DNA of 64,000 nt. It comes from Trypanosoma brucei (lineage: Eukaryota). Both the position numbers and the translations under genes were made by a program. The notes under the pieces were generated by a model, which searched no databases, was not told where the DNA came from, and saw only the letters and a list, made by a program, of their open reading frames with translations. Where the stretch lies: the NCBI GenBank assembly GCA_000002445.1, contig CM000208.1, positions 3,990,026 to 4,054,025 on the forward strand, in the 5' to 3' direction. Below are positions 3,715-61,040 of the stretch, one piece after another. Each line of letters begins with the position of its first letter. The stretch's first letter is position 1.

Positions 3715-4300
<586 letters not shown>

Positions 4301-5747
4301 GACTTAATGCATGGACACAATACACAAATTTAAAAATATGGTAAGGTGTAATCAGATCACGTAGCTGAGAACGAACGAGTAGAAACGAGCAGTAGTATTA
4401 TTTTAAAGAGACATGCAGAGGCTGGTGAATCAAACGCGGGTTCCAGCGGCGAAAGTAACAATGATGAATATGCGAAAGAATAGGAAGGCTGAGACCGTGG
4501 AGAGAACGAACGCGACGGAAGAAACAAATGTAGTTATTGCGTTTTATGCAGCGACAGCGAAAGGAAATGCATGACTAAAGTGCAAGGGAAAATAAGAGAC
4601 AAAAGAACAAGAAAGCAGTATATTAATCAGTGAATTATCTCTATGAACTGAACAGAATCGATGCCAGCACAACATTAACTCCGTATTGGTATACTAGGTG
4701 GTCACTAAGCCATTTAAAGAATTGAGTAATTAACATAATATTTTTCGCTGATACAAATCTAACGGAGCCTATTTATAAAGCAAAAGAAGCAAAAAGACAT
4801 TTTTGTACATCAATTCATGAAGCTTAGCCGCCATCTAAGCAACCCGATTGCAGATAATTGAGAGCAGAAGCTAAACCGAATTGCATTCAATAAAAAACAA
4901 CATCACAACTTGGCCATTTTAAGGAAAAATGCAGGCTGAGAATTAACGGAAGATAGTAGGGAGTAAGGGCTGTAAATGATAGGTATTTTAAATAAAAAAA
5001 TAGATTAACTTGCTTTGAATATATAAAGTAGAGATTCCTTAACTAAACTGAATACATTGCTACAAAAATTGTGGAAAAAACAACAGAATAGAACTTCCAC
5101 CCTAAAAACATCTAAATAAAGACACCAAAAGCGATTCAACAACTATAATCGTCGAAATACAAAAAGCAGCCACAAGATGTCACAGGCAAAATCTCTACAG
5201 AACAGTTCGGTCATAGTGAAGAAGCGGCTACGCATAATAGATAATCCAGGTAGAAATTGCCTAACTGTCAGAAAACAAAGCAAACATTGTTGATGACAAG
5301 AAAAAAATTAGAGAGACCAAACCGCACTAAAAGCGGGGCTCTAACATTAGCATGTTTATCTGTAACTGTTCCAGCAACCATTCTGAAAAAAGAAATTCAG
5401 GGAATGGCAAAACTGACTTTAAATGATTTTATAAAGTTGTTAGAAACATTTTTCTTGTAAGAAAATCTTGAGCCAATACAAAAGACCTTAAGCATCAACA
5501 AGTTGTATGTCAAAACATCACAAACAACGCGACGCACCAGCAATGATAGCCGCCTCACCGGAACCGACAAACACGTGTACAGAAACAACGCGGCGCACGC
5601 ACTATCGCTTGAGCCAATGACAGACCAACTGGAACCGCTGTGAAAAATGCGCAACGTCAACAGGATAGTTAGCCAACTAACCTACCACCGAACAACGTCT
5701 AAAAAACCGTCCTTTACAACCCTCATCCTGAAGAAAAAGAAGAAGCA

Positions 5748-7180
5748 ATGCAGTGCCTAGCCACAGCAGTATTTTTTTTGCTAGCATTTCTTTACAGCAC
5801 AGAGCAGGCTGTTGGCTCGAAAAAAGCTAATGCACAGTGCAAAAGCGCCTGCGGCTGTAAATCGCGACTGCTTAAGCGGTTAGACCTTTACACAAGCAAG
5901 TACGCCGACGGCATAAGCAATGAACGCAGAAATACCGAAGCCCACGCAAAACTCGTCGCGGCAGCGCTGGCAGCCCCACCTTCAATGAGGAAGAAGATCT
6001 TACCTTTACTAGTGGCAGCGGGCGATATCCTTGATACTTGTCGGGCTGATCTTGCAACAGCACGGCCCCTTGTGCAAACGGCAATGGCAAAAGTCACAGA
6101 AGCTGCCGGAGTCTACAATACACTGCAGAAGTTAGAAGACAACCTCGGCGAAGTAAAGATCGAATTTGGCGGCAGCGACCTCAACCTACCCGTAACCAAA
6201 TTTACAACAAAATCTCTAGGCGCTCTAAAACAAGCAAGCTGCACTGGCCCGGATGGCGAACCGCAAGGACTCAAACTAGCCTTCGAACACGAAGAAAACG
6301 AACCATAACCAGCAAAACTAATAACACACAGCCACATCGACCTGACCTGCAGGACGGGCGCAAGCCAAAACACGGCCTGCCACGGAAACGTAATCAACAA
6401 CCAAGCTCACATAACAATAGGGCATAGCTTTAGCAAAGCGGCAAAAGACGAAAGCGAATAGTGGGCGGCGGCAGCCGCAAAGAAAAAAAAACCATACACA
6501 GCAACGAAGCCGATTTCCTCGGCGGCAACGCGACGGTGGCGCACGAAGCGCTCAAAGCAATACGGTCAGCAGGAGCCACGACGCCCTGCAGCTCGCTCAT
6601 AACAGATTTCAATGCTGTTAGAAGCAACCCCAAATTCAAAATAATGGTAATCAAGGCATTGCTGAACAAGCCACAAGCGGAGAAGGAAAGTGACGCAACA
6701 CCCGCCGAAGTAACTGAGGCGATTAACACTGCCTACGGTCGGGAAGGCGCCGACTACAAGACCAAAACATGGAAAGATATAGGTTCAACTCTAATTCCCA
6801 AGGCAGATCCGTCAGGGGAAAAAACAGACACAATCGACAAGCTCTCAAGCTTGCCACTATGGGCCGACGCAATAGCACGAATCCTCCTACAACAAACGAC
6901 AAAGCAAGAGGAACAATCAATAAAAACCTCCAGCGACGAAACAACAAACAAAGAATGCGACAAACACACTGCTAAAACCGAAGGAGAGTGCAACAAACTC
7001 GGATGTGACTATGACGCCGAAAATAAAAAATGCAAACCTAAATCAGAAAAAGAAACCACAGCGGCAGGAAAAAAAGATAGAGCTGCGGGAGAAGCTGGAT
7101 GTGCAAAGTATGGAACTGAGAAAACTAAATGCGAAGCTAACAAAAGCTGCAGATGGGAAACCGAAACTTTTAAAAATTAA
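5748..7180 (+). pseudogene. VSG: VSG pseudogene (N-terminal ORF 5748-6308 plus C-terminal-domain ORF 6461-7180, interrupted by a stop or frameshift)
   Basis: Signal peptide MQCLATAVFFLLAFLYS. The C-terminal domain reads CDKHTAKTEGECNKLGCDYDAENKKCKPK...GCAKYGTEKTKCEANKSCRWE. The middle is interrupted, and no hydrophobic GPI tail is present after CRWETETFKN. Confidence 0.8.
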
Positions 7181-7444
7181 ACTTTTCTTTAATAAAATTT
7201 GCTTTGATTTCTTCTACCTTTGTTAGTTTGGCGTAATTCTAACATTTAAAGATATTGTTGCTCAATTCTCTAAAATTTATAAAATTTTATGAAACTTTAC
7301 ACTCTTGTAGCGCTTTTGCGAAATGTGTAAATTTTAAAAATATAAAAATATAATATTTTTGTATGAAAATGACCTATGGGAGAAAGTAATAGGGTTTCAG
7401 TGTCTGCAAAGTGGGTTATATTATGAAATTTAATAAATTTTTAA

Positions 7445-7560
7445 TGGATACTAGTTAGCGTTATAATTGTAAGGCTGATGATAATAATAATAATGATAAT
7501 AATAATAACAATAGAAGAGTGTTGTGACTGTTTGTATATACGAATATTATACTGAAAGTA
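7445..7560 (+). repeat. 70-bp repeat
   Basis: gatgataataataataatgataataataataacaatagaagagtgttgtgactgtttgtatatacgaatattatact. Confidence 0.85.
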
Positions 7561-8929
7561 ATAGAAAAGGCTGAAAGGGCGCTATAATACAAGCACTTAA
7601 AACAATGGTAATTGTGTAATATGAGTAATTTGTAAGTAGAAAAGTGGCTATGAGAACGATTAAAGTAGATTTAATATGTGCAGTTTCAAATACACACATG
7701 ATAATTTACACAATCATAAACAAGAAAATAATGGAAAGAAAAGTAAGGGAGAGAGTGCAGTGTACAGGCTAAATGGAGTTGCTGCGTTAACCGCAGAGAA
7801 TCTAATAGAAGCAGAAAAAGGTACAGAAGGGGAAAATACTGGATTGGGTGACGGAACATGCGGCACCTCGTCGCGAAATAAGAGTGCTAAAGGAGCCATT
7901 TATGCCCAGTATTTCAACAAAAAGTAAATAGATACTACAGCGGAGATGGCGATGGAAACTGTGGTCTTCTTCCGATGGAAGATCCTACTCTCCAGCTGTA
8001 AAAAAACACAACAAGCAGAGGAAGTAGAAAAAGAACGGAGGGGTTGGGTAAGCGTGAGGTAATTTCGTATAGGTCACAATAAATAGAGTAATATTGTTCG
8101 ACTCCTGTGTCCAAAAATATATTTCTATTTTGAGAAATATTTTAAAAATAGGACTGCTAATAGATTTCCATGAATAGAAAAGGAAAAATAAAAACAACAC
8201 CGAAACTGATTAAAACAACTTGTATATGAACACACGGATAATCTTTTTTAAATGAAGAGGGTCAATGGCGATACCACTCCAATTCCGAATTGACATACTA
8301 ACCAGAAATTAAGGGCTTTGACGGAACGAGAGATGCCTATAAAAGCGGTCGCTGACCGCATCATACGGTACAAATTAGCGCAGTAAAAGCACCGAATAAG
8401 GAAGTATATGGACCCAGAGTACCAATTCTTAGACGGCATAGATCTAAAACTACGCATCTCTTTAAGGCATAAAAACGATAAAAGCGAAACAGCAAAGAGC
8501 ATAAGCGTTAGATTGTTATTTATTCGAGATGTATTAATGACAATTAATGTGTAGATAGAACAGATGATAAACTATAAGATTCAAAATTTTAGCCATAAAA
8601 ATATGCAGAGTATTTTTAAAAATTACAGGATTGGGTTGAGCCAGAAACAGATGTAATAGATGCAAAACGACCTGAATTAAGAGCCAAAAATAAACTTAAA
8701 GAAAAATTTAATTTAACTCCTAATAAACATTGGTTTGTATGGTGGAACAACCCCTTTTATAGCTTAAAAATATAAAAAACAACCATTCATAATGATAACT
8801 TACATATCACAAATAGTTTAGTTGTTAGAAACATTGATAGAATGAAGAAACAACGTTTGACACAAAGCGGTTTGATATGGGGCAAATAACAGCTGATATT
8901 AAATGCTATAGTACTCCCAGAAAGTACGC

Positions 8930-11927: not shown

Positions 11928-12734
11928 ATGTTCCACACAGGGACTTGTTTTTTTCTTTTAGCCATAATAACAACAGACAGATGTGGATCCGCTATCGCTA
12001 AAAACACTAATAAACAGGTCAGGTCTGCCCCATGCAGTATCATAACAATAGGAGGCGCGAGAACGAAGTTTCCGGAAACAGGAAAGGAGCTGCTAATCAC
12101 AGATGCACAGCTGGGCAAGGCGTTGTGTGAAGCCCAAAAGGCCAAACCAGCAACGTACGACTCTCTTTCGACTGAAACTGCAAAAGGGCTAAGCGAGAAA
12201 CCAGAAGTACAAGCGCTAGCACAGCTTATTCTCTCCCCATTAAACAAGCTTTCAGACGACACAGAACAAAGAAAGGCTCTAGCAGCAAAGTTATTCGGGG
12301 GAGAACAAACAAACCTCAAAGAGAAATTTTTCAACTCACTTTCATCGGAAACTATAACCTACACAGCCGGCGCCGAAAAGAAAGAAGGGAAAATAACCGA
12401 CCTCGCTTCTGGAGATGACTTCGCTTCAGCAGTGGCATATTTTGTAGGTAAAGCAACAGTCACAATGCAACAAATTTCAAAAAAATTAAGGGAAAATGGT
12501 AAAGAAAAGGAGACAGGAGATGCAACAGGAGATAAGAAAGACGGGGATAAAAAAGACGAGGTTTGCACAGGCACCGAAGAGGGTAAATGTGACAAAACAA
12601 AGTGTGATTGGAACGCAGAAAAGAAAGAGTGCAAAGTTAAGGAGGGAGCGGTTGTTATTTCTGCAGTAATTAAAGCACCTCTTTTGCTTGCATTTTTGCT
12701 TCTAGCATATAACACTTTTAAGAATTATTTGTAA
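11928..12734 (+). pseudogene. VSG: Chimeric or truncated VSG: non-VSG-like 5' part fused to a VSG C-terminal region with a GPI signal
   Basis: The last ~170 aa (…AVAYFVGKATVTMQQISKKL…EVCTGTEEGKCDKTKCDWNAEKKECKVKEGAVVISAVIKAPLLLAFLLL) parallel the C-terminal third of the VSGs at 23763-24665 and 27009-28532. The N-terminal ~100 aa has no VSG signal peptide or helical-domain signature. Confidence 0.6.
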
Positions 12735-12954: not shown

Positions 12955-13020
12955 TAACTGCAAAGAAGATGATAATAAGGATAATGAAAAACGTATGCAT
13001 ATACTAATATTATAATAAGA
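12955..13020 (+). repeat. 70-bp repeat (divergent)
   Basis: gatgataataaggataatgaaaaacgtatgcatatactaatattataataagagtggcgg. Confidence 0.6.
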
Positions 13021-14076
13021 GTGGCGGTTGTTACTAATTGGACAGCCAAAATTGAAGCACTTACATCATTGTCAGGTGTTCAATTGGAGTGCGTCAGTGT
13101 GGTAACACGATGTATATTATTGGTGAAAGAATTGCAGAAAATGAAATAAGAAATGCGAAACTTTAAACACTAACATGAATATAGGAATAATCATACACAA
13201 GAAAATGATGAAGGGATTAATTAGTGGGAACATAGTCCAGCGTTTAAGACAAATGTATTCTCTATGTTATCCTCACAAGAAACAAAAGAATATGGAAGGA
13301 GTAAAAATACATCAAGAGGAGGAGGAGTAGTCGACAATACTCCGTATTTCATACCTAAATGTATAGATACTATTGCAGAGATTCTGGTGGAATAAATAAT
13401 AGCATTAATTTATAGATCTACGTTGATGGGAGTTATATTACAATTTGAAAATTTGGTAGATGCCACACGAAACTCTTATTATTTTTAGTATATTTGAATC
13501 AATCGGTTGAAAACATTACTGTGATTCAGATAAAAATGCAAGGAATAAATGAATTCATGTAGTGTAAATCAGTTGTTTTTTTAAAAGTTAACTCCTATAC
13601 AGAAACTATTTGACGAATTCTCAAAAAGATATGTTACAAACACATAAAATGCACGCTTCAAAAGATATATTATAAGTATAAGGCATCACCTATATCTACA
13701 AACAGATTTTTTACATAAGACCTTGGTAACAAAACTGACTTCTTTTGTTAATTTTTCCATAATTTTCTTATTAGCCACTCAAATTTAAGGGTATATTAGG
13801 GAATGAAATTTTGTATCTTTATAATTTCACTATTACTATTGATATTACATTTAAGGTTCTTAAATTATTTTGTAAAGATGATGAAATTAATGACGAAACA
13901 AATATAAGACAGAATTATCCAAGAAAACCAAGAGTTTTTGTGGCTGTAGTTGGAGTTCAAACTCATGCAACACAAGGATGATGTAGACTCATATTGAGTG
14001 CCAAACTAAGTAACATTCAAATTGTTACAATTGAAATGGGAGGTTTGTACAGTCATGTTAAAGACCTATATGGGTT

Positions 14077-14838
14077 ATGGAGTTTTTGGAGAGACAGAAT
14101 GCAAGTGATGAGAATATTTTAATAACTGTTGACGGGTCTGATGTTATTGTTTCTGATGGAAATAAGTATGAGAGTGCTGTGAAATATTTTATACAAAATA
14201 CTGCAGCTAATGAGGAAAAATTTAGTGGAGAGGATATAGTCAAAGAAAAGCAAATTTCCCCTATTATGTTCATGACAACATCAGAGTGTTATGCGCCTCA
14301 GTTGGATTTGCTCATGAACTCAGATCACAAGGAGCATGTGCAGAGATGTTTTCGGTTTTTTAATGTGGGCTACAGGAAAGAGGAGGATAAGAAGCTACCG
14401 CATTTACTGAAATTTCCTTCAAGTGGCAAACCTTTTCTTAGTGGGCGGAGGTATAATCATGAGAGTTTGGGAGTTTAATAAATTTGAATATGCTTTTGGA
14501 GAGTTACTAAAGGGAAGTGAGGAGTGGTGGTCAAAGCGGAGTATTTACAAACCATTGCTAATATGGAGTGTCATTCAGGAAGAATATGTTGGACAGAGAT
14601 TTTTCGAGGAGGAGAGGAATTATTTGGCTGGATTATGATGAAAGAATCTTTTCTCAGTCCGTACTTAACTTCTGGCAACGATCTCGCGTTTCTTCAGTTT
14701 CCAGGACGTGCGCTCTTCTGGAAGGCAAAGAATAGAAAAATAATATTCAACTTTACTTGGTATAAGCAGTTGGAGCGAAGGAAATTTACAAATAAAAGTT
14801 TGAGAACAATTTGTATTTATGTAGTTAGTGAAGTGTAA
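14077..14838 (+). pseudogene. Non-VSG degenerate ORF cluster of unknown family (three overlapping frames; candidate ESAG- or RHS-related pseudogene fragment)
   Basis: ORFs 14077-14478, 14423-14638 and 14524-14838 abut in different frames, which is the pattern of a frameshifted gene. The proteins are not Ala-rich or Cys/Lys-rich like VSGs, and no VSG motifs are present. The cluster lies downstream of the 70-bp repeat at 12955. Confidence 0.3.
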
Positions 14839-15072
14839 TTGTATTTGTAATATAAGAATATTTGTGGTGAAGCGTTTAAAGAAAAGGAATTGTTTAATCC
14901 GATCAAGTTGTAATTACTTGGCGACCATTTGCTGGCCGACTAGCTTGGATATTTCAAATTTTCTATAGTGGACATGCAACTGTAAAGTATAAAATGAGCA
15001 AACTAAGAAACAGTGGTCCATAATATCACTCTCTGCGCCTTTCACACAAGCTCTGATATAGAAACGCACAAA

Positions 15073-16632
15073 ATGGACCACAGACCTTCAGGGGAAGTGC
15101 TGACTTTAACAATCGTTGTAACTCTCGCAATATGCAGACCCCAGGTAGCACAGGCCATTGCCGACGAAACAAATGCCGCAGCTTTTGCCGCCGCATGTGC
15201 GTTGCTGCAAATCCAGGAGGCTGTAGCCCCGGCAGATTTACAGCCTGCAGATCCAACAGCGGCTCTTTACGAACTATAAGCCATCAACATGACAGTAAGC
15301 AACGAAAAATGGCAATCCAAATTTATAAAAGGTGAAGGTCAAGGGGTTAAGTGAGAGGATGACGAAAACAAAGATAAAACCACTAGACCAGAATGGAAGA
15401 CTAAATGGGAGGCGTGGGCCAAGGCTCGGCAGGCAATCAAAGATGCAAGCACTGAACCGGCCAAGACAATAAAAACGTCAGCCTTAGCAAAATTAACCGG
15501 TTGTGCGAAGAATCTAGCACAAAAGCGGGTAAATAACATTATAGAGCAGGCAAAGAAACTAGCAGCGTCCGGTAAAAGCGATGAGAACACATGGAAAGAG
15601 ACCACAAAGGAAAAAGTCGACGAAAAGATGTTAGAAGCGGTTTATGGCGATGCTAGCGGCAAAGTGAGTTTCACCACGGGCACACCGACCCTCGCTGCAG
15701 CCAAGTCGGTAGACGCATGCGGTACGGACGGCACAGTAGACAGCAAACAACCACTAGCGTATGTGCTCCTCTGTCTCGCTGCAGAAGCAGGAACCGGCGC
15801 CAACAGCATACACCCAGTTGCCAAAGCAAGTACTCCAGTGGGCTGGACAGCCGTAAACACAGCCCTGAACACACAATTCGCCGCTGTAAAAGGGCTTTGC
15901 CCCGCAAACCCCAAGCTAACTGTAACCCCAGAAGCAATCCGACAGGCACTTAGCGCACTGCAATCACAGATCCGAATAATAGGCAACAAAGGCTACCTTG
16001 GCTACTACGCAGCAAGCGGCTGCGACGGCAGCAGCAACAACGGCGTTTGTGTCAAGTACAGCACAAAAATAACAAATCTAGCGAATAACTTTGACAAACT
16101 CACTTACGTGTCCTCCATGGAAGAAGCAGCCAAGCTACTTGAGCGGCGCCGGGAGGCAGCACAGCGGCGGCAGGCTATAGCTGACCACATTGCGGCGCTG
16201 TTACACGGTGCGTACAACCTGGAGGATAAAGTAAACCAACTTGCAGATGTAGCGGCTATACCAGCCGGCAATCCTCCAGCAAAGCCTAAGTTATTAGACG
16301 CAGAGCTTGGCGCAAGAACAACTGAGTGCGAAGGAATAACCAAAAGTACTAATTGCGATGCCAAAACTTACTGCAGTTATGAAACAGAAAGCGATGGCAG
16401 TAAAAAGTGCAAATATAATGCGACAAAAGCCACAACAAATAGCGTCCCTGCAACGCAACATCAAACAGGAGGGACTGAAACAGCAACAGAGAAATGCAAA
16501 GGCAAACCTGAGAAAGATTGCAAATCTCCGGATTGTAAGTGGGAGGGAACAGATTGCAAGGATTCCAGCTTTCTCGTCAATAAGAAATTTTCTCTGATAG
16601 CTGCTGCTTTTGTGAGCTTGGTGATATTATGA
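15073..16632 (+). pseudogene. VSG: VSG (type B N-terminal domain) with a frameshift near 15280-15350 and an otherwise complete C-terminal domain and GPI signal
   Basis: Signal peptide MDHRPSGEVLTLTIVVTLAICRPQVAQA. A shifted frame reads DDENKDKTTRPEWKTKWEAWAKARQAIKDAS...; the 15628-16632 ORF ends CKGKPEKDCKSPDCKWEGTDCKDSSFLVNKKFSLIAAAFVSLVIL. A stop (G Q G V K *) lies at about 15350 between the segments. Confidence 0.85.
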
Positions 16633-45785: not shown

Positions 45786-48700
45786 TATGAAACATCACTG
45801 GTGAAACCGGCCACCTCATCATGGGACCCAGTGCCTAGTACTTCATCCAGGAGGAAGCTAAGTGCTCGCATTAAACCAGGCCCGACAGGATTGTGGTGGG
45901 CAAAAAGCTTTCGGTGACCAGAGAATGAGAAAGCAGCGGTATAGGCATCTGCGGTGAAGAAATACATTAGACTAATCTTCTGCACGTGCAAGTGTGCCTA
46001 TATTGGGATCCATAGGCTTATATTACTTCTTATAGTAGATTTGGAACGGAATTCCTGTCCTGTCCTTTGTGGAGCCCAGTGGAATTCTGTGGATTTCTCC
46101 AGGGCAAAGTGGAACGCCTTAGAGAAGAAACTCCACGAGTATATGGTAGTCTTCTGTCTATTGCGGGAGATTCACTTGGCAGTAGAAGAATACTGCGCAT
46201 TGAAAATTAGTAGATACCAACACATGGTGTCACATTCTCCGCATGGTGGTAAGGTATTAATTCTAGTGAGAGAACGCGTGAAAATCATCTAAGGTCCGAA
46301 GGAGGAAGCACTGCCGGAAAGAGTCTTGGAAAGCTAATGTTTTCATCTGATCTAATGTTAACTATAAAATCAGCTTACTTCACACGAAAGAAAATGTCAT
46401 TACCTCCACGGTTGAGTGCCTTGAAAGCTCAACAGTATCAGCGGTGATAGGATTTGATACAAACGCACATCACGAGTTATGGGACCCACTTCGCCCAAAT
46501 GGTACAGCAGGAGAATGCATTATAGGCTGATGTCTACGAAATGATATCAAAATTTCAAATGATGGCACCCCAACGAGAAGAATGACTCACACTGCAACCA
46601 TGTCGTCTCCAGATGTTACGATGTACAGAGACTGCGAATTCACAAGATGGAAGGCAAGCATCAGTCCGGATATTGACCACTACTGGATAACGTTTGAGGT
46701 ATGTATTGGGATTGATGTAGAAATGATCGCCATCACTAAGTCACGAAGTACGTTGCATGTTTTTAACGAAGCAAATTGGCAGGAGTTTCGAAAAGTGTAT
46801 GATGCCACAAAGGTGAAAAATTAAGGAATCGAAAAAGAAAGTGGATGCCATGAATGAGGCAGTGACTAAAGTCATTCGCACAGCAGCAAAGAAAACGATA
46901 ACGAAATGTAAGTGAGTATTGCTACAGTTCCGGACACAAGAACTGGCCGAAATGGACATAAAAATAAGAGAATGTACAAATGAAAAGCACAGAGATATTC
47001 TTATACACAAGAGAAGGAAGGTTTTTGCCGAAAATTCCCTACAGCGATGGAAGGAAAATGCGTTGAAGATGTCAGTGATTGACACAAAAAGTTGGAGTGT
47101 AGTCATGTCGGTGTATGCACTAAGGTCACTGTCATCTCCGGTTATGGTAGTGAATGACCACCCCCTAACACGCAGACAGCAAGCCAATAAGCTAGCATAG
47201 ACGTATTGAGAGAGCGGTTGACAAGAGCACTAGATGCTCCTCCCATGAGTACACCATATCGAGTGAGCGTAGAATTCGCACCAATAACGATTTAAGAACA
47301 TGAGACAGCACCAAAAGACCTCTATTCAGGCACTGCCACCGGTAAAGACAATACACATTGTGAACTGTTGAATTAATCAGGACGCCGTAGCAAGAAATGT
47401 GTCATACAGTTCTTCAACTGCGCCCTACAGGGACACAAGGTGCCGAAGAAGTGGAATCAGGAAGTTATCGTCTAACTGCTCAAACACGACAAACCGGTCA
47501 AGTGTATATCATCGTTTCGGCACATCACGGTCACTAGCATGCACTGTAAGTTCATGGACAGGATTGTAGAGAGACGCATACAGGACACAGTAGAATGTAA
47601 GCTACAAATACAGTAAGCTGGTTTTCGTCCAGAGAGGTCTACGTTAGAGGCCCTGATGGCACTCACAGACTTCGTGACACATAGAATAGCAGGAGAGACA
47701 GCCGCAGCGGTATTCATATATTATGTGGGGGCATTTGACTCTGTAGAGCACAGGTATATAATAGAATCACTAAAAAAATATGAGGTAGACATGCACCTCA
47801 TTACATGTGTTGCAAATTTCCTGGATGGATGGACTGCAGTAGCAAGAATAAACAACACCCTTTCAAATAAAATACAATTCACATGTGGTGTTCCGCAAGG
47901 GTCTGTATTGGGGCCGTTACTATTCATTATCTCAATGCACTCCTTTAGCGCGAAATTGAATGCCATACCAGTCCTTAAACACTGCTTCTTCGCAGAAGAC
48001 CTCACAATAGTATGCTCTTACACTGACCGGAAAGCTATTAGGAAGACACTACAAACAGGATGAGATTGCATAGCAAGCTGCTCGACAGAGCATTAAATAG
48101 AGGTGTCCGCCGATAAAACGGAGTACACGTTCTTCAAGGTTAGAAAGACAGAGACTCATTACATCTAATGATGTGAGAACACAGATTAAATGAGACGAGA
48201 AATCCCATAATCCTTGGGGTGACGATGCAGCCACACAGTGGTGTAAGAAAACATGCTCACAACATACAAACAGCAGCAAATACAAAATTAATGAAACTAC
48301 GGGCCGTTGCATTACCTGAATGAAGGGTGAGCAAAGAAAGCTTCCGAGCATTTTACGTAGCCTAATCCAGATAAAGTTATGTTATGGGATAGCTGCGTGG
48401 TGGTTAAATGCTTCTTCATCTATCAAGAAGAAGCTTGAACGAGTACAAACGCAGGCTTCACATGTTGTCGCGGGTATTTCAAAGTGCGCGAATCGGCATG
48501 ATGTTATGAAGGAGTCTCACCTTCACACGATAGATGATATTGATCATAGACGAACAATAGAATACTGTTGAACAAGGAAGGTGAACGGTAAGGCATCAGC
48601 CGATACAGTGGGGAAAATGTTCCCACCCAGTCATCCAATACACACGCACCTGCAAAGCGTATCACACTTGTATGAGGAAGTAGACAGACCGGAAAAGTCA

Positions 48701-51100
48701 CACACGGCAAGCGTATTGCAACCGATGAAGATATCGTACTTCAATACCATAACATCAGGTGGTCTCCATTATGACTCTTCAGACAGCGAAAAGAAAAGAC
48801 ACACAATGCAAATGGTATGTAGATTCAGAGACTACGATTATCAAGTGTAGACGGATGGGTCGGTAATACTGTACGAATCCTCTGGCACCACCGTAATAAT
48901 ATACCCTAGACAAGGTAATGCAGTAAGGGTGAAGAAGGGAACAAGCAGGTTATCGTGCAGCTACAGAGCCGAGTGTGCAGCTATGGATGCAGGAATTATA
49001 AAACTTAAGACAACAATAAAGATCAATGAGAGCAGAAAAATGAAAGTGTAAATATTCACAGAATCGTTGCCCTTATTAATGGAGCTCAAAACAGGTCCTG
49101 CAGCAGTGACTGATTTTATTCTACGACGCATATGGGATCTGATCATACACTTCATGAAACTGAGAGTAGCCATGTCGTTTCAGCTTGTGTTTTGGCATTG
49201 CGGTATGCAGAGAAATGACAAAGTAGACACGCTCACAAACAAAGGAAACCACGTGCCGCAACCCTACCCTGCACGGATTACCCACATTGTCACGGGTATA
49301 ACACGCCAATTACTTAATCAGGAACAATGCGAATTTGCGGAAGGCTGAGGCCCAAACACACACCACAGTGCGTTACTAAGCTATATAAAAACGACCCAAA
49401 AATAAAGCAGCTAGGAAGGGAAGATGAGTCACCTTTAGCTCAATTTAAACGAGGGACTTAAAAACATTTTTGGTAGTTACATAGGGTGATCACATGAAAG
49501 ATTAAAGAAGTGGAGTGTAGATGGTATAAAAATCACCATGGGAAATTTTTTTAATAATTCCCCTGCCCCACTCAAAACACTGTAAAGATAGAAGAAACTG
49601 AGGAAGGCAAGATGGTATTAGCTACAAGACAGAATAACTAGATCATATGCACAGTGTGCAATATCGTGTGTGCGAGAAGACAAGCAGGGGCTGTTCACAT
49701 GATGAAAATACATCAGTGTGTTCGTGAAAATGCACTAGCTGTATTAACGATTGCTCCAAGAGCAGAACAGGTATATGATGGTGTCTATCGATGTCACGTA
49801 TGCGGTAAAGTATTCGACAGAAAGTAGCTACTGCAAGAACAAATCCCACAACACCCTCCAACAGATCAATTAGTATGTACAGAGCAGCAAAAGAGGAAAC
49901 GGGAAGAAGAAAAACAGTCGTTACCAACTGTTCACAAGTTTCAGTGGTGCCCAAAGCAGTATGGCAGGCATGGCTGGTTTTCTAGACATATACATCTGAC
50001 ACGTCCTGAAAAGCAAACCGATTTGACAAAACAAACGGAAATACAGGATGTGAGCAGGGAAGATGAACAAGCGCAAGCACTACAAGCATATGAACGTCTC
50101 AACTGCAAACAGGTGTATAGAAACAAAACCTGGTTCACCAGACATAAGTGCATACCGGAGCTGAGTGAACGGGAACCAAGCGCACCACTACAATAAATAC
50201 TGTTGGAGAGAGAAACATGTAAGATATGCAGTAAAGAATACCACCACAGCTGGATGTTGAGCCATATGACTGCAAAACATCCCGGGAACGACATTTCACT
50301 CAGACCACAGCCGATAAAGATAAGAAAAGTGAAGAAGGAGATATCAAAGTTTCAAACAAAGAAGAACACCGGTGGTGAAAACAAAAATAATGATGACAAT
50401 AATACACCACGTTATGTTTGTGACAAATGTAATAGGGTTTTCAAAAGCAGGCATGGCTAACACACCACAAGTGCGTGATCATCGAGAACGCGGACCTAAA
50501 AATGGGAGAAAGTGAACAATCCCCATGGATAAGCTACACATCTAGAAACCACTACCAAAAATGGATTGAATCCCGGCACCATGGATAGAGCGCTTCTCAA
50601 CTCAGACTTGTTACACACAACAAAACTTGAGCTCCACGACAAGAAAGAGAGAAAGAGGAACCGAGCATGACACGTCAGCAGATGAAATGAATATATGCGA
50701 TCAGAAAGAGGAGCCGAAAAACAAACGGCATAAGGATCAATGGCACACAGATAACCCCGTAGAGAGTTTGCATGTGGAAGGCGTAAGAACACCTACATGT
50801 CATGGTGTACACCAGTTTGGCATACCAACACACACCACAAAAGTGCAATCACTTTAAAGAGGGAGTGTGAAAAAGGACCCCTTTAAATCACACCGCTAGC
50901 CCCTCTCAGCCACCAATGCCCACTCTGCTCGAAGGTATGTTCACACAAGCAATATCTAACAATGCATGTCCAAGCAGAAAATGCGGAGACACGTAGCTTT
51001 TATAGGCGAAATGAGCTAAAAGAGATATGTAAAGAAACATCGATTCACCTGTTACAGTGTCCGGCTTTGAGTAAACTCAGGTATTAGCATGTAGTAGACA
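45786..51100 (+). mobile_element. Degenerate ingi-type (ingi/RIME/DIRE family) non-LTR retrotransposon; 3' boundary uncertain
   Basis: AP-endonuclease-like ORFs 45954-46292 (...FCLLREIHL...GGKVLILVRE) and 46582-46824. Reverse transcriptase motifs in 47656-48063 (AFDSVEHRYIIESL; GVPQGSVLGPLLF; FFAEDLTIV, the YxDD-box position). RNase H-like motif HCGMQRNDKVDTLTNKG in 49067-49348. C2H2 zinc finger (CKICSKEYHHSWMLSHMTAKH; YVCDKCNRVFKSRHG) in 50203-50460. All are + strand in different frames with many stops, so the element is degenerate. Confidence 0.75.
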
Positions 51101-54615: not shown

Positions 54616-55707
54616 CAATAATTGTGGTGAAAACCGAATGCGCGGAAAAATAGAGGAAGTTAAAATAAAGTTTAGAATATATAAAAATAATTGAACCTGT
54701 TGGAGAAAGAGCACAAAAATTACTATTTTAAAGAAAATTTTGATAAGAAGGGCAATTATGTGCGGTTTAAGTGCAGAAATGACAAAAGGTATTATAACAA
54801 ACAAGAAGAAGGTTGAAATATGAAAGACACAGTAAAAAGCTGTGGTGTGAAGTTTTCACGGTTTACTAAAAAATATAAGTAACAGAATCTGTAGAATAAA
54901 GTGGAAGAAAAACAAGAAACCTTAAAATAATAAGAAAATACTTTGATGGGTAATAAGTGGAAAAATTTTATATAAAGTAGGAAAAAGTTTCAATGATACA
55001 TTGCTAATTTTATACTTATATAAGGGTAATAAGGTAACACTATTTAGCGAGCAGGTGCTCCATATTAGTATTTGGTCTTGTCTTCAATTTATGAAGAGAT
55101 TTAACAAGTTACAACATTTAAGATAGGGTAAGACATTCCAAAAATTAACGATTCATAAATGGAAACAACCTGAAAGAAACAAAGTTTTGAACGAGCGATA
55201 AACAAACTAGTTTCTTTTCAAAAACCTAAGATGTTTTATTCTCACAAAAATAACATGTAACAAATCAAAATTAGCAGCGTACGAAAGTAGTTAAAATAAG
55301 TAAGGTTTGAAATTCTAAAAATAAAAAAATATGTGATACTTTAAAGATTGACAGGAGTGGATTGAGTCAGCGATAAATTCAATATATATGTATAAAAAAC
55401 ATAGAATTAATGGCATACTGTGGTTGACAAACAAAAGTGAGGCTAAATTTTTTTCATGATAACCATGAGGTTCTATAGTGAAACCCTCATTTTGACAGTT
55501 TGAACATAAAACACATACAACCATTTAGACAAATAATTCACACATCACAAAAAAAGGGTATAGTAACTTTGGGCTTTTTGAATATTATTTCAACAAAAAT
55601 ATGCGAATTATTTAACTTTACAGAACCCAGACCATCTTTAAAAGCCCAAACCCTAGTCTCAACTTTGCAGCAAACACAACGCTAAAGATCAGAGGTCTAA
55701 CTTTAAA
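54616..55707 (+). other. Upstream block (co-transposed-region-like) of VSG cassette copy A; duplicated at 61041-62139
   Basis: Minus-strand ORF 54610-54804 is identical to 61041-61235. ORF 55500-55685 is about 90% identical to 61932-62132 (MNIKHIQPFRQIIHTSQKKGIVTLGFLNIISTKICELFNFTEPRPSLKAQ…). Confidence 0.8.
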
Positions 55708-57159
55708 ATGCGTTTAGAGGTGCGACAAGCAGTTAGCAAAAGCCTGCCCGTGCACGCAATCGACTTTCTGATCGTGTTCGTGACTCTAACAATGCGTACG
55801 GATGCAGCGTTTAAAGAAGATGCGGCGGCCGACATGCACCTTCTTTGCGAGGCAATGGCGTTGGAAAACGTAGAACCAGCAGCGCCGACACTAGCTGACA
55901 ACTTCGACAATGATATTAGCGAATTGCGCATAATGAATATGTTTACAGCCGACGATAGCTGGCGAAGCAATTTCAAAGGCGACCCCAAAACGGACACATG
56001 GGAAGCCCGTAGCAAGGGCTGGTGCAACAGAGCCATTTGTATCTCATTGGCAAGGCGAATTCACCAAGTGGCAGCAGGACTACCAAACGGCGGAGGTTGC
56101 AAACAATCCGAAAACCTGACTAGCAAACAACCCACCACCGCAGGGACCGTACGCCAAAAGACTGGAGCACAGACAGATCAACGACACACTAGTGGAAGTA
56201 GCAGCCAAGATTGAGAGCTACAGGAAAAGTAAACAAAAGATAGTGCCGGACGGCGTCAAGAAAGTGAAGGAGCTTATTTCAGAGGCACTGTACGGCATTG
56301 GTCAAACAGATTACACGGAAAAGACAGGCAGCACGTACACTTCCTCTACCATTTACACGGCCGCGTGCGGCGTGAACGGCGGCAAGAGCATCGTAGGAGA
56401 TCTGCTATGTATATGTTGCCAAGCCGCATCCGGCACAACCAATGCATGCAACAACAGCGGCGTAAGCTGCAACTGGACCGGCGCAATGACAACTCACGTC
56501 ACCACCCTCAAAGCCAAATGTCCATCAAAGAAGCCGACTAAACCAACCTTAGCGACGTTAATGCAATTGTCGTACAGCTCAAGAGCGGCATCCGTAAGGG
56601 CAAAAAGTGGAACGCAATCAAATTCTACCTCAGCGGCGACCTCGCCACCTGTGACGGCGCAACAGACAAAACTTGCGTTGACTACAGCGCGCACTACGCT
56701 GCTGGCAGCAGCAAGAGTGGAGTCGACAGCATACCATGGATAGCCAAACTCAACGACGCCATCACCGCCATGGAAGAGATGGAGAAAGATGCCCAGAAAG
56801 CCAGAGAAGAAGCAAAGGAAGTACGGATGCTAATAGCCGCTGCGAAAAGAGCGTACAGGATTGCCATCGAGCCTTAAATGAAACAAAGCAACGAACCAGC
56901 CAAAAGCAGTGAAGCAGAAACAAAAATGCAGCAGCCAACCGAAACAGAAGATAGATGCAACAAAAAGGGGCAAAATGAATGCAACTCCCCATGCAAGTTG
57001 GTTGAAGAAGGTGGCACAAAGAAGTGCAAATTGGATAAGGAGGAAGTAAAAAAGATAACAGATGAGGCTGCAAAGGATGCAAAAACAAACACCACAGCCA
57101 GCAATTCTTTCGTCATTCACAAGGCCCCTCTTTTGCTTGCAGTTTTGATTATAGCATAA
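55708..57159 (+). pseudogene. VSG: VSG pseudogene (type B), a paralogue of the terminal VSG, with at least two frameshifts
   Basis: MRLEVRQAVSKSL...AFKEDAAADMHLLCEAMALENVEPAAPTLADNFDNDISELRIMNMFTADDSWRSNFKGDPKTDTWEARSKG matches the terminal VSG, then falls into the frame that the terminal gene uses only as an alternative ORF (GWCNRAICISL…). The middle ORF 56192-56743 and the C-terminal-domain ORF 56878-57159 (…CNSPCK…KCKLDKEEVKKITDEAAKDAKTNTTASNSFVIHKAPLLLAVLIIA) continue the alignment. Confidence 0.85.
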
Positions 57160-57394: not shown

Positions 57395-60335
57395 TTTGTG
57401 AATAGTAACAGTAATAGTAATAATAATAGGAGAGTATTGTGAGTGTGTGTATATACGAATATTATAGTAAGAGCAGTAATAATAATAATAATGATAATAG
57501 TAATAATAATAATAATAATAGGAGAGTATTGTGAGTGTGTATATATACGAATATTATAATAAGAGCAGTAATAATAATGATGATAATAATAATAATAGGA
57601 GAGTGTTGTGAGTGTGTGCATATACGAATATTATAATATGAGCAGTAATAATAATAATAATGATAATAGTAATGATAATAGGAGAGAGTGTTGTGAGTGT
57701 GTGTATATACAAATACTATAATAAGAGCAGTAATAATAATACTGATAATAATAATAGGAGAGTGTTGTGAGTGTGTTTATACTAATATTATAATAAGAGC
57801 AGTAATAATAATGATGATAATAATAATAATAGGAGAGTGTTGTGAGTGTGTGCATATACGAATATTATAATATGAGCAGTAATAATAATAATAATGATAA
57901 TAGTAATGATAATAGGAGAGAGTGTTGTGAGTGTGTGTATATACGAATATTATAATAAGAGCAGTAATAATAATAATAATGATGATATAATAATGATAGG
58001 AGAGAGTGTTGTGAGTGTGCGTATATACGAATATTATAATAAGAGCAGTAATAATAATAATAATGATAATAATGATAATAATAATAATAATAGGAGAGTA
58101 TTGTGAGTGTGTATATATACGAATATTATAATAAGAGCAGTAATAATAATGATGATAATAATAATAATAGGAGAGTATTGTGAGTGTGTATATACAAATA
58201 CTATAATAAGAGCAGTAATAATAATAATAATGATAATAATAATAATAATAATAATAATAGGAGAGTATTGTGAGTGTGTATATATCCGAATATTATAATA
58301 AGAGCAGTAATAATAATGATGATAATAATAATAATAGGAGAGTATTGTGAGTGTGTATATACAAATATTATAATAAGAGCAGTAAAATAATAATACTAAT
58401 GATAATAGTAATAATAATAATAATAGAAGAGTGTTGTGAGTGTGTGTATATACGAATATTATAATTAGAGCTGTATTAATAATAATGAAAATAGAAGAGT
58501 GTTGTGAGTGTGTGTATATACGAATATTGTAATAAAAGCAGTAATAACAGTAATGATAATAATAATAATGATAGGAGAGTGTGTTGTGAGTGTGTGTATA
58601 TACGAATATTATAATGAGAGCAAAAATAATAATACTAATAATGATAATAATAATGATAGGAGAGTGTGTTGTGAGTGTGTGTATATACGAATATTATAAT
58701 AAGATCAGTAATAATGATAGTAATAATGATAATAATAATGATAATAATAATAGGAGAGTGTTGTGGCTGTGTATATACGAATATTATAATGAGAGCAAAA
58801 ATAATAATACTAATAATGATAATAATAATGATAGGAGAGTGTGTTGTGAGTGTGTGTATATACGAATATTATAATAAGAGCAGTAATAATAATAATAATA
58901 ATGATAGGAGAGTGTTGTGAGTGTGTGTATATACGAATATTATAATAAGAGCAGTAATAATAATGATGATAATAATAATAATAGGAGAGTATTGTGAGTG
59001 TGTATATACAAATACTATAATAAGAGCAGTAATAATAATAATAATGATAATAATGATAATAATAGGAGAGTATTGTGAGTGTGTATATACAAATACTATA
59101 ATAAGAGCAGTAATAATAATAATAATGATAATAATAATAATAATAATAATAATAGGAGAGTATTGTGAGTGTGTATATATACGAATATTATAATAAGAGC
59201 AGTAATAATAATGATGATAATAATAATAATAGGAGAGTATTGTGAGTGTGTATATCCAAATATTATAATAAGAGCAGTAAAATAATAATACTAATGATAA
59301 TAGTAATAATAATAATAATAGAAGAGTGTTGTGAGTGTGTGTATATACGAATATTATAATTAGAGCTGTATTAATAATAATGAAAATAGAAGAGTGTTGT
59401 GAGTGTGTGTATATACGAATATTGTAATAAAAGCAGTAATAACAGTAATGATAATAATAATAATGATAGGAGAGTGTGTTGTGAGTGTGTGTATATACGA
59501 ATATTATAATGAGAGCAAAAATAATAATACTAATAATGATAATAATAATGATAGGAGAGTGTGTTGTGAGTGTGTGTATATACGAATATTATAATAAGAT
59601 CAGTAATAATGATAGTAATAATGATAATAATAATGATAATAATAATAGGAGAGTGTTGTGAGTGTGTGTATATACGAATATTATAATAAGAGCAGTAATA
59701 ATAATGATGATAATAATAATAATAGGAGAGTATTGTGAGTGTGTATATACAAATATTATAATAAGAGCTGTATTAATAATAATGAAAATAGAAGAGTGTT
59801 GTGAGTGTGTGTATATACGAATATTATAATTAGAGCAGTAATAATAATGATGATAATAATAATAATAGGAGAGTATTGTGAGTGTGTATATACAAATACT
59901 ATAATAAGAGCAGTAATAATAATAATAATGATAATAATAATAATAATAATAATAATAGGAGAGTATTGTGAGTGTGTGTATATACGAATATTATAATAAG
60001 AGCAGTAATAATAATAATAATGATAATAGTAATAATAATAATAATAATAGGAGAGTATTGTGAGTGTGTATATATACGAATATTATAATAAGAGCAGTAA
60101 TAATAATGATGATAATAATAATAATAGGAGAGTATTGTGAGTGTGTATATACAAATACTATAATAAGAGCAGTAATAATAATAATAATGATAATAATGAT
60201 AATAATAGGAGAGTATTGTGAGTGTGTATATACAAATACTATAATAAGAGCAGTAATAATAATAATAATGATAATAATGATAATGATAGGAGAGTGTTGT
60301 GAGTGTGTATATACGAATATTATAATAAGAACAGT

Positions 60336-60370
<35 letters not shown>

Positions 60371-60424
60371 TAATAGGAGAGTGTTGGGAGTGTGTGTATA
60401 TACAAATATTATAATAAGAGCAGT

Positions 60425-60465
<41 letters not shown>

Positions 60466-61040
60466 TAGGAGAGTGTTGGGAGTGTGTGTATATACAAATA
60501 CTATAATAAGAGCAGTAATAATAATGATGATAATAATAATAGAAGAGTGTTGTGAGTGTGTTTATACTAATATTATAATAAGAGCAGTAATAATAATGAT
60601 GATAATAATAATAATAGGAGAGTGTTGTGAGTGTGTGCATATACGAATATTATAATATGAGCAGTAATAATAATAATAATGATAATAGTAATGATAATAG
60701 GAGAGAGTGTTGTGAGTGTGTGTATATACAAATACTATAATAAGAGCAGTAATAATAATACTGATAATAATAATAGGAGAGTGTTGTGAGTGTGTTTATA
60801 CTAATATTATAATAAGAGCAGTAATAATAATGATGATAATAATAATAATAGGAGAGTGTTGTGAGTGTGTGCATATACGAATATTATAATATGAGCAGTA
60901 ATAATAATAATAATGATAATAGTAATGATAATAGGAGAGAGTGTTGTGAGTGTGTGTATATACGAATATTATAATAAGAGCAGTAATAATAATACTGATA
61001 ATAATAATAGGAGAGTGTTGTGAGTGTGTTTATACTAATA
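57395..61040 (+). repeat. 3.6-kb array of 70-bp repeats (about 50 units) with higher-order duplicated blocks
   Basis: Continuous reiteration of (TAA/TGA)n + AGGAGAGTGTTGTGAGTGTGTATATACGAATATTATAATAAGAGCAGTAATAATAAT. Exact block repeats show in the ORF track: 57631-57855 = 60650-60874; 58107-58298 = 59805-59996; 58508-58699 = 59403-59594. Confidence 0.95.

What the first reader, a model, noticed from the sequence alone, without database searches (positions are those of the whole stretch)
13020..14838. Non-VSG degenerate gene in a VSG cassette position (family unknown)
After the 70-bp repeat at 12955, where a VSG would be expected, a 1-kb unique spacer is followed by three abutting ORFs in different frames: 14077-14478, 14423-14638 and 14524-14838. 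Their composition is unlike VSGs. They are not Ala-rich and have no Cys/Lys C-terminal domain or GPI tail: MEFLERQNASDENILITVDGSDVIVSDGNKYESAVKYFIQ…FFNVGYRKEEDKK…; …EWWSKRSIYKPLLIWSVIQEEYVGQRFFEEERNYL…; …GEELFGWIMMKESFLSPYLTSGNDLAFLQFPGRALFWKAKNRK…. The frame-hopping pattern indicates a frameshifted remnant of a roughly 250-aa protein. It is probably an ESAG- or RHS-like pseudogene or another array-associated family, but the family cannot be assigned from the sequence alone.
Basis: inference. Interest (0 to 1): 0.5.

Follow-up and report, generated by a model that had tools for sequence, protein, structure and literature searches.

The report
Dead ESAG3 gene beside silent VSG
The three abutting reading frames are the middle of a full-length but broken copy of ESAG3, the trypanosome enzyme that adds glucose to the VSG coat protein. 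It lies just upstream of a silent VSG pseudogene, a kind of relic already well documented in Trypanosoma brucei subtelomeres, so the finding is ordinary.

Summary
The ORFs are real, but they are only part of the feature. Window 13803-14913 (+) is a complete, colinear ESAG3 pseudogene covering aa 1-368 of expression-site ESAG3. The repaired translation hits only the ESAG3 cluster (E=7.7e-105) and is 67% identical.

It carries five frameshifts and three in-frame stops. Three active-site residues are also replaced (H297Q, E244K, Q245R).

It does not take the place of a VSG. A full-length b-type VSG pseudogene starts 159 bp downstream, at 15073-16632. The layout is therefore a partial 70-bp repeat, a 781-bp spacer, the ESAG3 pseudogene, then the VSG pseudogene.

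The window is the right telomeric end of T. b. brucei TREU927 chromosome 10.

The literature already reports ESAG3 pseudogenes throughout VSG arrays, and ESAG3 pseudogenes 3' of the 70-bp repeats in expression sites BES7 and BES15. I found an ESAG3 pseudogene directly upstream of a VSG pseudogene at two more loci, in T. b. gambiense and T. b. equiperdum. The gambiense locus also has 70-bp repeats about 0.86 kb upstream.

ESAG3 itself is a GT-A glucosyltransferase related to LH3/PLOD3. This rests on a 2026 preprint and was reproduced here by profile and fold search.

One thing remains unexplained. The copy is 85% identical to expression-site ESAG3 over aa 43-266 but only 35% over aa 267-355, which suggests a mosaic.

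Verdict: already known, low interest.

The parts
12955..13021 (+). Single, partly degenerate 70-bp repeat unit, the 5' boundary element of the VSG cassette
   Evidence: Exact ATATTATAATAAGAG at 13007-13021. 12999-13021 is 95.7% identical to consensus positions 40-62 of the repeat derived from the 57.4-61 kb array. The 5' half (12955-12998) is a degenerate TAA/TGA-rich stretch.
13022..13802 (+). AT-rich spacer (31% GC) with no coding signal; its last ~70 nt belong to the conserved 5' flank of ESAG3
   Evidence: No paralogue elsewhere in the window. GC is 0.307. Only short ORFs. 13733-13802 aligns with the stretch directly upstream of the T. b. gambiense ESAG3-like copy, as part of a 73%-identical blastn match 13733-14571 vs L001 5428-6257.
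13803..14913 (+). Full-length ESAG3 pseudogene (aa 1-368 plus the native TAA stop at 14911-14913). Segments by frame: 13803-13853 (+3, aa 1-17), 13856-14059 (+2, aa 19-85), 14062-14442 (+1, aa 87-213), 14444-14605 (+2, aa 214-266), 14607-14654 (+3, aa 267-282), 14656-14913 (+1, aa 283-368).
   Evidence: The repaired translation hits only the ESAG3 cluster: E=7.7e-105, 66% identity, 99% coverage. The cluster members are named ESAG3 from T. brucei expression sites. tblastn pieces are. The frameshift-aware alignment scores 1186 with 245/364 identical. Identity to 13 expression-site ESAG3 proteins is 66-68%.
13854..14655 (+). Five frameshifts: 1-nt deletions at about 13854 and 14060, and 1-nt insertions at about 14443, 14606 and 14655
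   Evidence: Frameshift-aware protein-to-DNA alignment; sequence context at each site. The sites are not long homopolymer runs, so assembly error is an unlikely cause.
13979..13981 (+). In-frame TGA replacing Trp59 (TGG to TGA)
   Evidence: W59 is invariant in 13 expression-site ESAG3 proteins.
14131..14142 (+). The metal-binding DxxD motif (D110-G-S-D113) is still encoded
   Evidence: Codons GAC at 14131 and GAT at 14140. The motif is defined in the ESAG3 cryo-EM preprint, doi 10.64898/2026.01.27.701950.
14534..14539 (+). The active-site acidic-polar pair E244/Q245 is replaced by K/R (AAG CGG)
   Evidence: residue roles.
14695..14697 (+). The C-terminal metal-binding His297 is replaced by Gln (CAG)
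   Evidence: His is kept in every relative aligned, including the genes related to ESAG3 (GRESAG3) of other trypanosome species. Its role is given.
14836..14850 (+). Two in-frame TAA stops: 14836-14838 replaces the dimer-interface Trp345, and 14848-14850 is an inserted codon
   Evidence: the role of W345 is.
14914..15072 (+). 159-bp gap between the ESAG3 pseudogene stop and the VSG start codon
   Evidence: No similarity elsewhere in the window.
15073..16632 (+). The cassette's own VSG: a full-length b-type VSG pseudogene in one frame. It has two premature stops (TAA at 15277-15279 and a second at about 15352), a C-terminal domain and a GPI signal.
   Evidence: Pfam VSG_B 2.7e-35 and Trypan_glycop_C 5.4e-26 on 15628-16632; VSG_B profile positions 1-50 on 15073-15279. 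Single-frame translation ending ...SSFLVNKKFSLIAAAFVSLVIL*.

Best explanation
Window 13803-14913 (+) is a dead copy of ESAG3 (expression-site-associated gene 3). ESAG3 encodes the Mn2+-dependent, GT-A-fold UDP-glucose:VSG O-glucosyltransferase of Trypanosoma brucei.

The copy lies in a silent subtelomeric VSG array at the right end of TREU927 chromosome 10. It is in the same orientation as the VSGs, inside the spacer that separates a cassette's 70-bp repeat from its VSG pseudogene.

Shown:
- Full-length colinear homology to ESAG3.
- Five frameshifts and three premature stops.
- Loss of three catalytic residues.
- An intact cassette architecture around it.

It therefore cannot make the enzyme.

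Inferred:
- It is a passenger. It came from the recombination traffic between telomeric expression sites and arrays.
- It would be copied along with the VSG whenever this cassette is duplicated by gene conversion starting in the 70-bp repeat.
- That is the simplest origin of the 'ESAG3 pseudogene 3' of the 70-bp repeats' seen in expression sites BES7 and BES15.
- Its uneven divergence suggests it is a recombinant: a 5' two-thirds like expression-site ESAG3, joined to an old, divergent ESAG3-like 3' third.
For: Homology:
- The ESAG3 cluster is the only hit, at E=7.7e-105. Cluster members are named ESAG3 from Lister 427, TREU927 and T. b. gambiense expression sites.
- tblastn and the frameshift-aware alignment cover aa 1-368 in order and end at the native stop.

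Inactivation:
- Five frameshifts and three stops.
- H297Q, E244K, Q245R, W59stop and W345stop, set against the residue roles in the preprint.

Subfamily:
- 67% identity to expression-site ESAG3, against 23-40% (by region) to GRESAG3-type relatives.

Enzyme fold of the family:
- Pfam GT_PLOD matches 8 of 46 family representatives, best E=3.2e-10.
- The family profile hits LH3 in the PDB at E=1.4e-11.
- The AlphaFold2 model has pLDDT 89.7, and its top Foldseek hits are LH3 at E=3e-9.
- The preprint shows the activity experimentally.

Context:
- 70-bp repeat and VSG pseudogene.
- This cassette's repeat-to-VSG spacer is the longest in the window, about 2.0 kb against 0.74-1.76 kb. Without the 1.1-kb pseudogene it falls in the normal range.

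Precedent:
- ESAG3 'is also in VSG arrays' (PMC3607257).
- BES7 and BES15 carry an ESAG3 pseudogene 3' of the 70-bp repeats, and ESAG3 loci coincide with recombination breakpoints (PMC2567434).

Recurrence:
- T. b. gambiense L001 shows 70-bp repeats, an ESAG3 pseudogene, then a VSG pseudogene 233 bp later.
- T. b. equiperdum L003 shows an ESAG3 fragment immediately upstream of a VSG pseudogene.
Against: Nothing contradicts the identification. The weak points concern the inferred history.
- No expression-site ESAG3 DNA could be fetched. The mosaic idea therefore rests on protein identities only.
- No flanking duplications or repeats mark an insertion event.
- The 781-bp spacer and the 159-bp gap have no detectable relatives, apart from the ~70 nt of 5' flank shared with the T. 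b. gambiense copy. The direction of transfer, array to expression site or the reverse, is therefore unknown.
- I could not read the TriTrypDB annotation to confirm that the pseudogene is already annotated.
Confidence: 0.93

Rival explanations
1. A functional ESAG3 or ESAG3-like gene whose apparent lesions are assembly or sequencing errors.
For: The DxxD motif, G215-G216, W242, H54, Y82, H84, Y163 and the conserved cysteines are still encoded. The native start and stop positions are kept.
Against: Eight independent disabling lesions, three of them substitution-type stop codons that indel errors cannot create. The frameshift sites are not long homopolymers. The catalytic residues H297, E244 and Q245 are replaced. 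The sequence comes from the finished TREU927 chromosome 10.
Confidence: 0.01
2. Chance ORFs in unique spacer DNA.
For: No Pfam family for any of the three ORFs. No paralogue in the window. ORF length alone is only mildly unusual: 12 of 1000 shuffles reach 138 aa.
Against: E=7.7e-105 to ESAG3, with colinear coverage of all 368 residues across frames.
Confidence: 0.002
3. A member of the older GRESAG3 / ESAG3-like branch of the family (Fam53) rather than ESAG3 in the strict sense.
For: The 3' third (aa 267-355) is only 35% identical to expression-site ESAG3, about as far as it is from other array lineages at 35-38%. At nucleotide level it is barely above shuffled controls against two other array copies.
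Against: Over aa 43-266 it is 85% identical to expression-site ESAG3, against 27-46% to GRESAG3-type proteins of T. brucei, T. vivax and T. congolense. Overall it is uniformly 66-68% identical to every expression-site copy. At most the 3' third could come from another lineage.
Confidence: 0.04
4. The coding function is dead, but the copy is retained because it is useful as recombination homology. Its roughly 750 bp of ESAG3-like sequence would give a second upstream pairing site with ESAG3 genes in expression sites, or donate segments to them.
For: ESAG3 loci coincide with recombination breakpoints between expression sites (PMC2567434). The copy looks mosaic: 188/220 against 30/86 identical, Fisher p=1.7e-17, whereas the control copy P0016 shows no contrast. 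An ESAG3 pseudogene directly upstream of a VSG pseudogene recurs at two other loci.
Against: There is no evidence of selection for retention, and the recurrence can be simple hitch-hiking during cassette duplication. Conversion from an ESAG3 in an expression site would delete ESAG2, ESAG11, ESAG1 and the 70-bp array; that outcome was neither searched for nor seen in the papers read here. Not testable with these tools.
Confidence: 0.08

Closest known systems
Expression-site ESAG3 of T. brucei (e.g. Q26748/AAA63784, CAQ57304, CAD21886), the VSG O-glucosyltransferase
   Same: Colinear over all 368 codons with the same start and stop positions. 67% amino-acid identity overall and 85% over aa 43-266. 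The hydrophobic N-terminal leader, the DGSD motif and the conserved cysteines are recognisable.
   Different: Five frameshifts and three stops; H297Q and E244K/Q245R. It lies about 49 kb from the telomere in a silent VSG array, not in a promoter-driven expression site. The C-terminal third is far more diverged than in any expression-site copy; those are at least 92% identical to one another.
ESAG3 pseudogenes lying 3' of the 70-bp repeats in Lister 427 BES7 and BES15 (Hertz-Fowler et al. 2008, PMC2567434)
   Same: The same unusual position, between a 70-bp repeat and a VSG and in the VSG's orientation.
   Different: Those lie in telomeric expression sites next to long 70-bp arrays. This one is in an internal array cassette with a single partial repeat.
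Array ESAG3-like pseudogenes in T. b. gambiense DAL972 (FN554968.1, locus L001) and T. b. equiperdum (CM010678.1, locus L003)
   Same: In both, an ESAG3 pseudogene lies a few hundred bp upstream of a VSG pseudogene (233 bp in L001; roughly 0.2 kb in L003, VSG start not mapped). L001 also has 70-bp repeats about 0.86 kb upstream. Homology extends about 70 nt into the 5' flank.
   Different: Only 73-80% nucleotide identity in the 5' and middle parts, and about 61% in the 3' third. The lesions differ: a GTG start and one frameshift in L001, and a 5' truncation with an internal deletion in L003.
GRESAG3 / ESAG3-like genes of the chromosome core (e.g. XP_823173.1 on TREU927 chromosome 10; homologues in T. 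vivax, T. grayi and T. conorhini)
   Same: Same protein family and predicted GT-A fold.
   Different: Only 23-40% identical by region. Those genes are intact and about 380-410 aa long, with N-terminal extensions.
Glycosyltransferase domain of human LH3/PLOD3 (PDB 6FXR, 6WFV)
   Same: Closest solved fold for the ancestral protein: GT-A fold with a DxxD metal site, a glycine loop and a C-terminal His.
   Different: About 15% sequence identity, a different acceptor (collagen galactosyl-hydroxylysine rather than VSG Ser/Thr), and no octadecameric ring. The window copy is a pseudogene in any case.

Membership tests
ESAG3 in the strict sense (Fam53, T. brucei expansion) | Significant, colinear, full-length sequence homology to expression-site ESAG3 | tested here: met
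   E=7.7e-105. aa 1-368 aligned in order, 245/364 identical.
ESAG3 in the strict sense (Fam53, T. brucei expansion) | Closer to expression-site ESAG3 than to the GRESAG3 / ESAG3-like branch | tested here: met
   66-68% identity to 13 expression-site copies, against 23-40% by region to GRESAG3-type proteins. The 3' third taken alone is ambiguous (35%).
ESAG3 as a working O-glucosyltransferase | Uninterrupted 368-codon reading frame | tested here: not met
   Five frameshifts and three in-frame stops.
ESAG3 as a working O-glucosyltransferase | Complete GT-A catalytic set: D110xxD113, G215-G216, W242, E244/Q245 and H297 (preprint) | tested here: not met
   D110, D113, G215, G216 and W242 are kept. 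E244K, Q245R and H297Q are lost. The interface residue W345 is a stop codon.
ESAG3 as an expression-site-associated gene | [quoted passage not shown] | tested here: not met
   It lies about 49 kb from the telomere repeats, downstream of a single partial 70-bp repeat, among VSG pseudogene cassettes with no other ESAG nearby. Transcription is not testable here.
VSG | VSG N-terminal (a- or b-type) or C-terminal domain, plus a GPI signal | tested here: not met
   No VSG Pfam domain in the three ORFs. The neighbouring gene at 15073-16632 has them.
RHS (retrotransposon hot spot) protein | RHS Pfam domains or similarity to RHS proteins | tested here: not met
   No Pfam hit even at E<=10 apart from a chance DUF7674 match. 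The only protein hit is ESAG3.
GT-A glycosyltransferases related to the PLOD/LH3 GT domain (ancestral protein) | GT-A Rossmann-like fold with a DxxD motif; profile or structure match to LH3 | tested here: met
   Tested on intact ESAG3 and its family. GT_PLOD matches 8 of 46 members. The family profile hits LH3 at E=1.4e-11. The model has pLDDT 89.7 and hits LH3 at E=3e-9. A single sequence alone is below the Pfam threshold (16.5 bits against 27).

The most novel reading that the evidence does not exclude
The pseudogene is a true mosaic. Its 5' two-thirds were recently overwritten by, or donated to, an expression-site-type ESAG3, while its 3' third preserves an old, otherwise unsampled ESAG3 lineage.

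If so, array ESAG3 pseudogenes that travel with VSG cassettes would form a segmental-conversion archive. That archive could diversify the VSG O-glucosyltransferase in the way VSG pseudogenes diversify the coat.
Probability: 0.07. Interest if true: 0.5.

Novelty: already known. Interest (0 to 1): 0.1.

Why it matters
It matters mainly for correct annotation.
- The cassette is an ordinary VSG cassette that carries an ESAG3 relic, not a cassette lacking its VSG.
- ESAG3 was recently shown to be the enzyme that O-glucosylates VSGs and changes antibody epitopes. Cataloguing where its dead copies lie, and whether they exchange sequence with live copies, therefore has some value for understanding how that enzyme family turns over.
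- The cassette layout also offers a simple origin for the odd ESAG3 pseudogenes downstream of the 70-bp repeats in BES7 and BES15.

None of this is surprising to a specialist.

Tried and rejected
- Pfam on the three ORFs gave nothing, so a domain scan alone would wrongly suggest there is no family.
- blastn of 13020-14900, 13022-13802 and 14900-15100 against the window found no paralogue.
- Exact look-ups for DNA encoding five expression-site ESAG3 proteins and ORF1 all failed. No nucleotide comparison with expression-site ESAG3 and no dN/dS estimate was therefore possible.
- A second word-indexed protein search with intact ESAG3 returned only its own cluster. The exhaustive HMMER search was needed to reach the family.
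- The first AlphaFold run, on 13 near-identical sequences, was useless (pLDDT 32.6). The 46-sequence alignment worked.
- An Rfam scan of the whole window found nothing.
- A search for flanking direct or inverted repeats around the pseudogene found only chance-level matches.
- Global nucleotide alignments of the 3' third with two other array copies were barely above shuffled controls and did not identify a donor lineage.
- Rejected readings: chance ORFs, VSG, RHS, an intact gene with sequencing errors, and GRESAG3.

Full report
**Observation**

The three ORFs are at the stated coordinates with the stated translations.
- ORF1 (14077-14478) and ORF3 (14524-14838) are in the same frame, separated by stop codons. 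Only ORF2 (14423-14638) is in another frame.
- The 70-bp repeat is real but partial. The hallmark ATATTATAATAAGAG is exact at 13007-13021.
- 12999-13021 matches the 3' half of the repeat consensus at 96%.
- ORF length alone is only mildly unusual for this AT-rich DNA. The longest open stretch is 138 aa, and 12 of 1000 shuffles reach it.
- No paralogue of the region exists elsewhere in the window, and Pfam finds nothing in the ORFs.

**Identification**

I joined the three ORFs into a conceptual translation and searched it against the large protein collection.
- It gave one hit at E=7.7e-105, with 66% identity over 99% of the query.
- That cluster's 15 members are ESAG3 proteins from T. brucei bloodstream expression sites. 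A few old GenBank entries in it are mislabelled 'variable surface glycoprotein'.
- tblastn with a 368-aa ESAG3 showed that the homology starts upstream of ORF1 and ends downstream of ORF3.
- A frameshift-aware protein-to-DNA alignment places aa 1-368 colinearly on 13803-14910, followed by the native stop at 14911-14913. 245 of 364 aligned codons are identical.

The frame path is +3, +2, +1, +2, +3, +1.

| Lesion | Position |
|---|---|
| 1-nt deletion | about 13854 |
| 1-nt deletion | about 14060 |
| 1-nt insertion | about 14443 |
| 1-nt insertion | about 14606 |
| 1-nt insertion | about 14655 |
| In-frame TGA, replaces W59 | 13979 |
| In-frame TAA, replaces W345 | 14836 |
| In-frame TAA, inserted codon | 14848 |

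It derives from a 368-aa protein, not a 250-aa one.

**What the ancestral gene does**

A 2026 preprint (doi 10.64898/2026.01.27.701950) covers function and structure.
- It describes a GT-A fold closest to human LH3/PLOD3 and an octadecameric ring.
- It names D110xxD113, G215-G216, W242, E244/Q245 and H297 as the catalytic set, and H54/W345 as interface residues.

I reproduced the fold assignment independently.
- Intact ESAG3 alone only grazes Pfam GT_PLOD (E=0.005, below the cut-off) and LH3 in the PDB (E=0.029).
- The exhaustive HMMER search found 46 family representatives, and 8 of them match GT_PLOD (best E=3.2e-10).
- The family profile hits LH3 at E=1.4e-11.
- An AlphaFold2 model built on that alignment has pLDDT 89.7. 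Its top Foldseek hits are all LH3, at E=3e-9.

Mapping the key residues onto the window gives the following:

| Residue | State in the window copy |
|---|---|
| D110, D113, G215, G216, W242, H54, Y82, H84, Y163, conserved cysteines | still encoded |
| E244 | K |
| Q245 | R |
| H297 | Q |
| W59 | stop |
| W345 | stop |

With the frameshifts, this rules out an active enzyme.

**Context**

Exact look-ups show that three intact VSGs of the window are XP_828092, XP_828093 and XP_828094 of T. b. brucei TREU927. They lie on a 4,054,025-bp contig, which is chromosome 10. The window ends in telomere repeats, so this is that chromosome's right end.

The pseudogene does not occupy a VSG slot.
- 159 bp after its stop codon, a full-length b-type VSG pseudogene begins. 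It spans 15073-16632, reads in one frame with two premature stops, and has a C-terminal domain and a GPI signal.
- Across the window's cassettes, the distance from the 70-bp repeat to the VSG body is 0.74-1.76 kb.
- Here it is about 2.0 kb, the longest. Removing the 1.1-kb pseudogene brings it into the normal range.
- No flanking repeats mark an insertion, and no Rfam family is present.

**Comparison with what is known**

The literature already covers this.
- Tiengwe et al. 2012 note that ESAG3 'is also in VSG arrays' (PMC3607257).
- Abbas et al. [quoted passage not shown]
- Sistrom et al. 2016 say that pseudogenic ESAG copies are prevalent in subtelomeric VSG arrays (PMC4766357).
- Hertz-Fowler et al. 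2008 list an 'ESAG3 pseudogene 3' of 70-bp repeat' in BES7 and two in BES15. They also note that ESAG3 loci coincide with recombination breakpoints between expression sites (PMC2567434).

Two further loci that I could fetch also place an ESAG3 pseudogene directly upstream of a VSG pseudogene.
- In T. b. gambiense DAL972 (L001), two 70-bp repeats at 4470-4640 are followed by an ESAG3-like pseudogene at 5501-6564. A VSG pseudogene follows at 6797-8287.
- In T. b. equiperdum (L003), a truncated ESAG3 at 5989-6787 lies just upstream of a frameshifted VSG.
- Homology between the window and the gambiense copy extends about 70 nt upstream of the start codon.

**Mechanism**

It is shown that this is a non-functional relic inside an otherwise standard cassette. 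The rest is inferred.
- VSG cassettes are duplicated by gene conversion bounded upstream by 70-bp repeats and downstream by the VSG 3' end. That is established knowledge of VSG switching.
- An ESAG3 pseudogene lying between those boundaries would therefore be copied passively with its VSG.
- This accounts for the recurrence of the layout and for the BES7 and BES15 structures.
- The direction of the original transfer, from expression site to array or the reverse, cannot be decided here.

**Unexplained residue**

Divergence from expression-site ESAG3 is strikingly uneven.
- 188 of 220 residues are identical over aa 43-266, but only 30 of 86 over aa 267-355 (Fisher p=1.7e-17). The switch falls near the frameshift at 14606.
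- Expression-site copies are at least 92% identical to each other throughout. A gambiense array copy shows no such contrast.
- Family-wide anchor residues survive in the diverged third. This argues for long divergence under constraint rather than local decay.
- The simplest reading is a recombinant between an expression-site-like ESAG3 and an old divergent lineage.
- I could not test this at nucleotide level, because no expression-site ESAG3 DNA was retrievable.
- Comparison with two other array copies was uninformative.

**Verdict**

This is a correctly spotted but ordinary feature: an ESAG3 pseudogene in a silent VSG cassette of the TREU927 reference genome. Its novelty is 'already known' and its interest is low.

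Noticed in passing
window 63796-64000: 34 perfect GGTTAG telomere repeats run to the end of the window. Exact VSG matches to XP_828092, XP_828093 and XP_828094 on a 4,054,025-bp contig place the window at the right end of T. b. brucei TREU927 chromosome 10.
   Followed up: partly
window 57400-61000 and 62140-63591: About 3.6 kb holding some 53 tandem 70-bp repeats (GC 22-23%, GC skew +0.7) precedes an intact telomeric b-type VSG. No ESAGs lie upstream, and the silent VSG array runs right up to the repeat array, so this telomere does not look like a canonical bloodstream expression site.
   Followed up: partly
window 55601-57150 vs 62033-63585: The VSG pseudogene immediately upstream of the long 70-bp array is 80% identical at nucleotide level, over 1562 bp, to the telomeric VSG downstream of it. 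A paralogous pair brackets the repeat array.
   Followed up: partly
window ~45800-51000 (RVT_1 hit at 47656-48063): A degenerate non-LTR retroelement, probably ingi-type, interrupts the VSG array. It has a reverse-transcriptase domain hit at E=3.3e-14 and sustained 41-45% GC with many broken ORFs.
   Followed up: no
window 3776-4249: A near-perfect (ATA)158 trinucleotide tract (98% matches) adjoins a 70-bp repeat remnant at 4233-4274. It generates long spurious ORFs on both strands.
   Followed up: no
L001 4470-8287 (T. b. gambiense DAL972 FN554968.1) and L003 5989-8500 (T. b. equiperdum CM010678.1): Independent loci where an ESAG3 pseudogene lies a few hundred bp upstream of a VSG pseudogene. 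In L001 it is also preceded by two 70-bp repeats, and its start codon is GTG. The ORFs called on these relics are in public databases as 'hypothetical protein, unlikely'.
   Followed up: partly
window 11928-12734: The cassette upstream holds only the C-terminal part of a VSG. The Trypan_glycop_C match is weak (E=0.0012), and the ORF has a GPI-type tail and a non-VSG-like N-terminus, so it is a truncated or chimeric VSG pseudogene.
   Followed up: no
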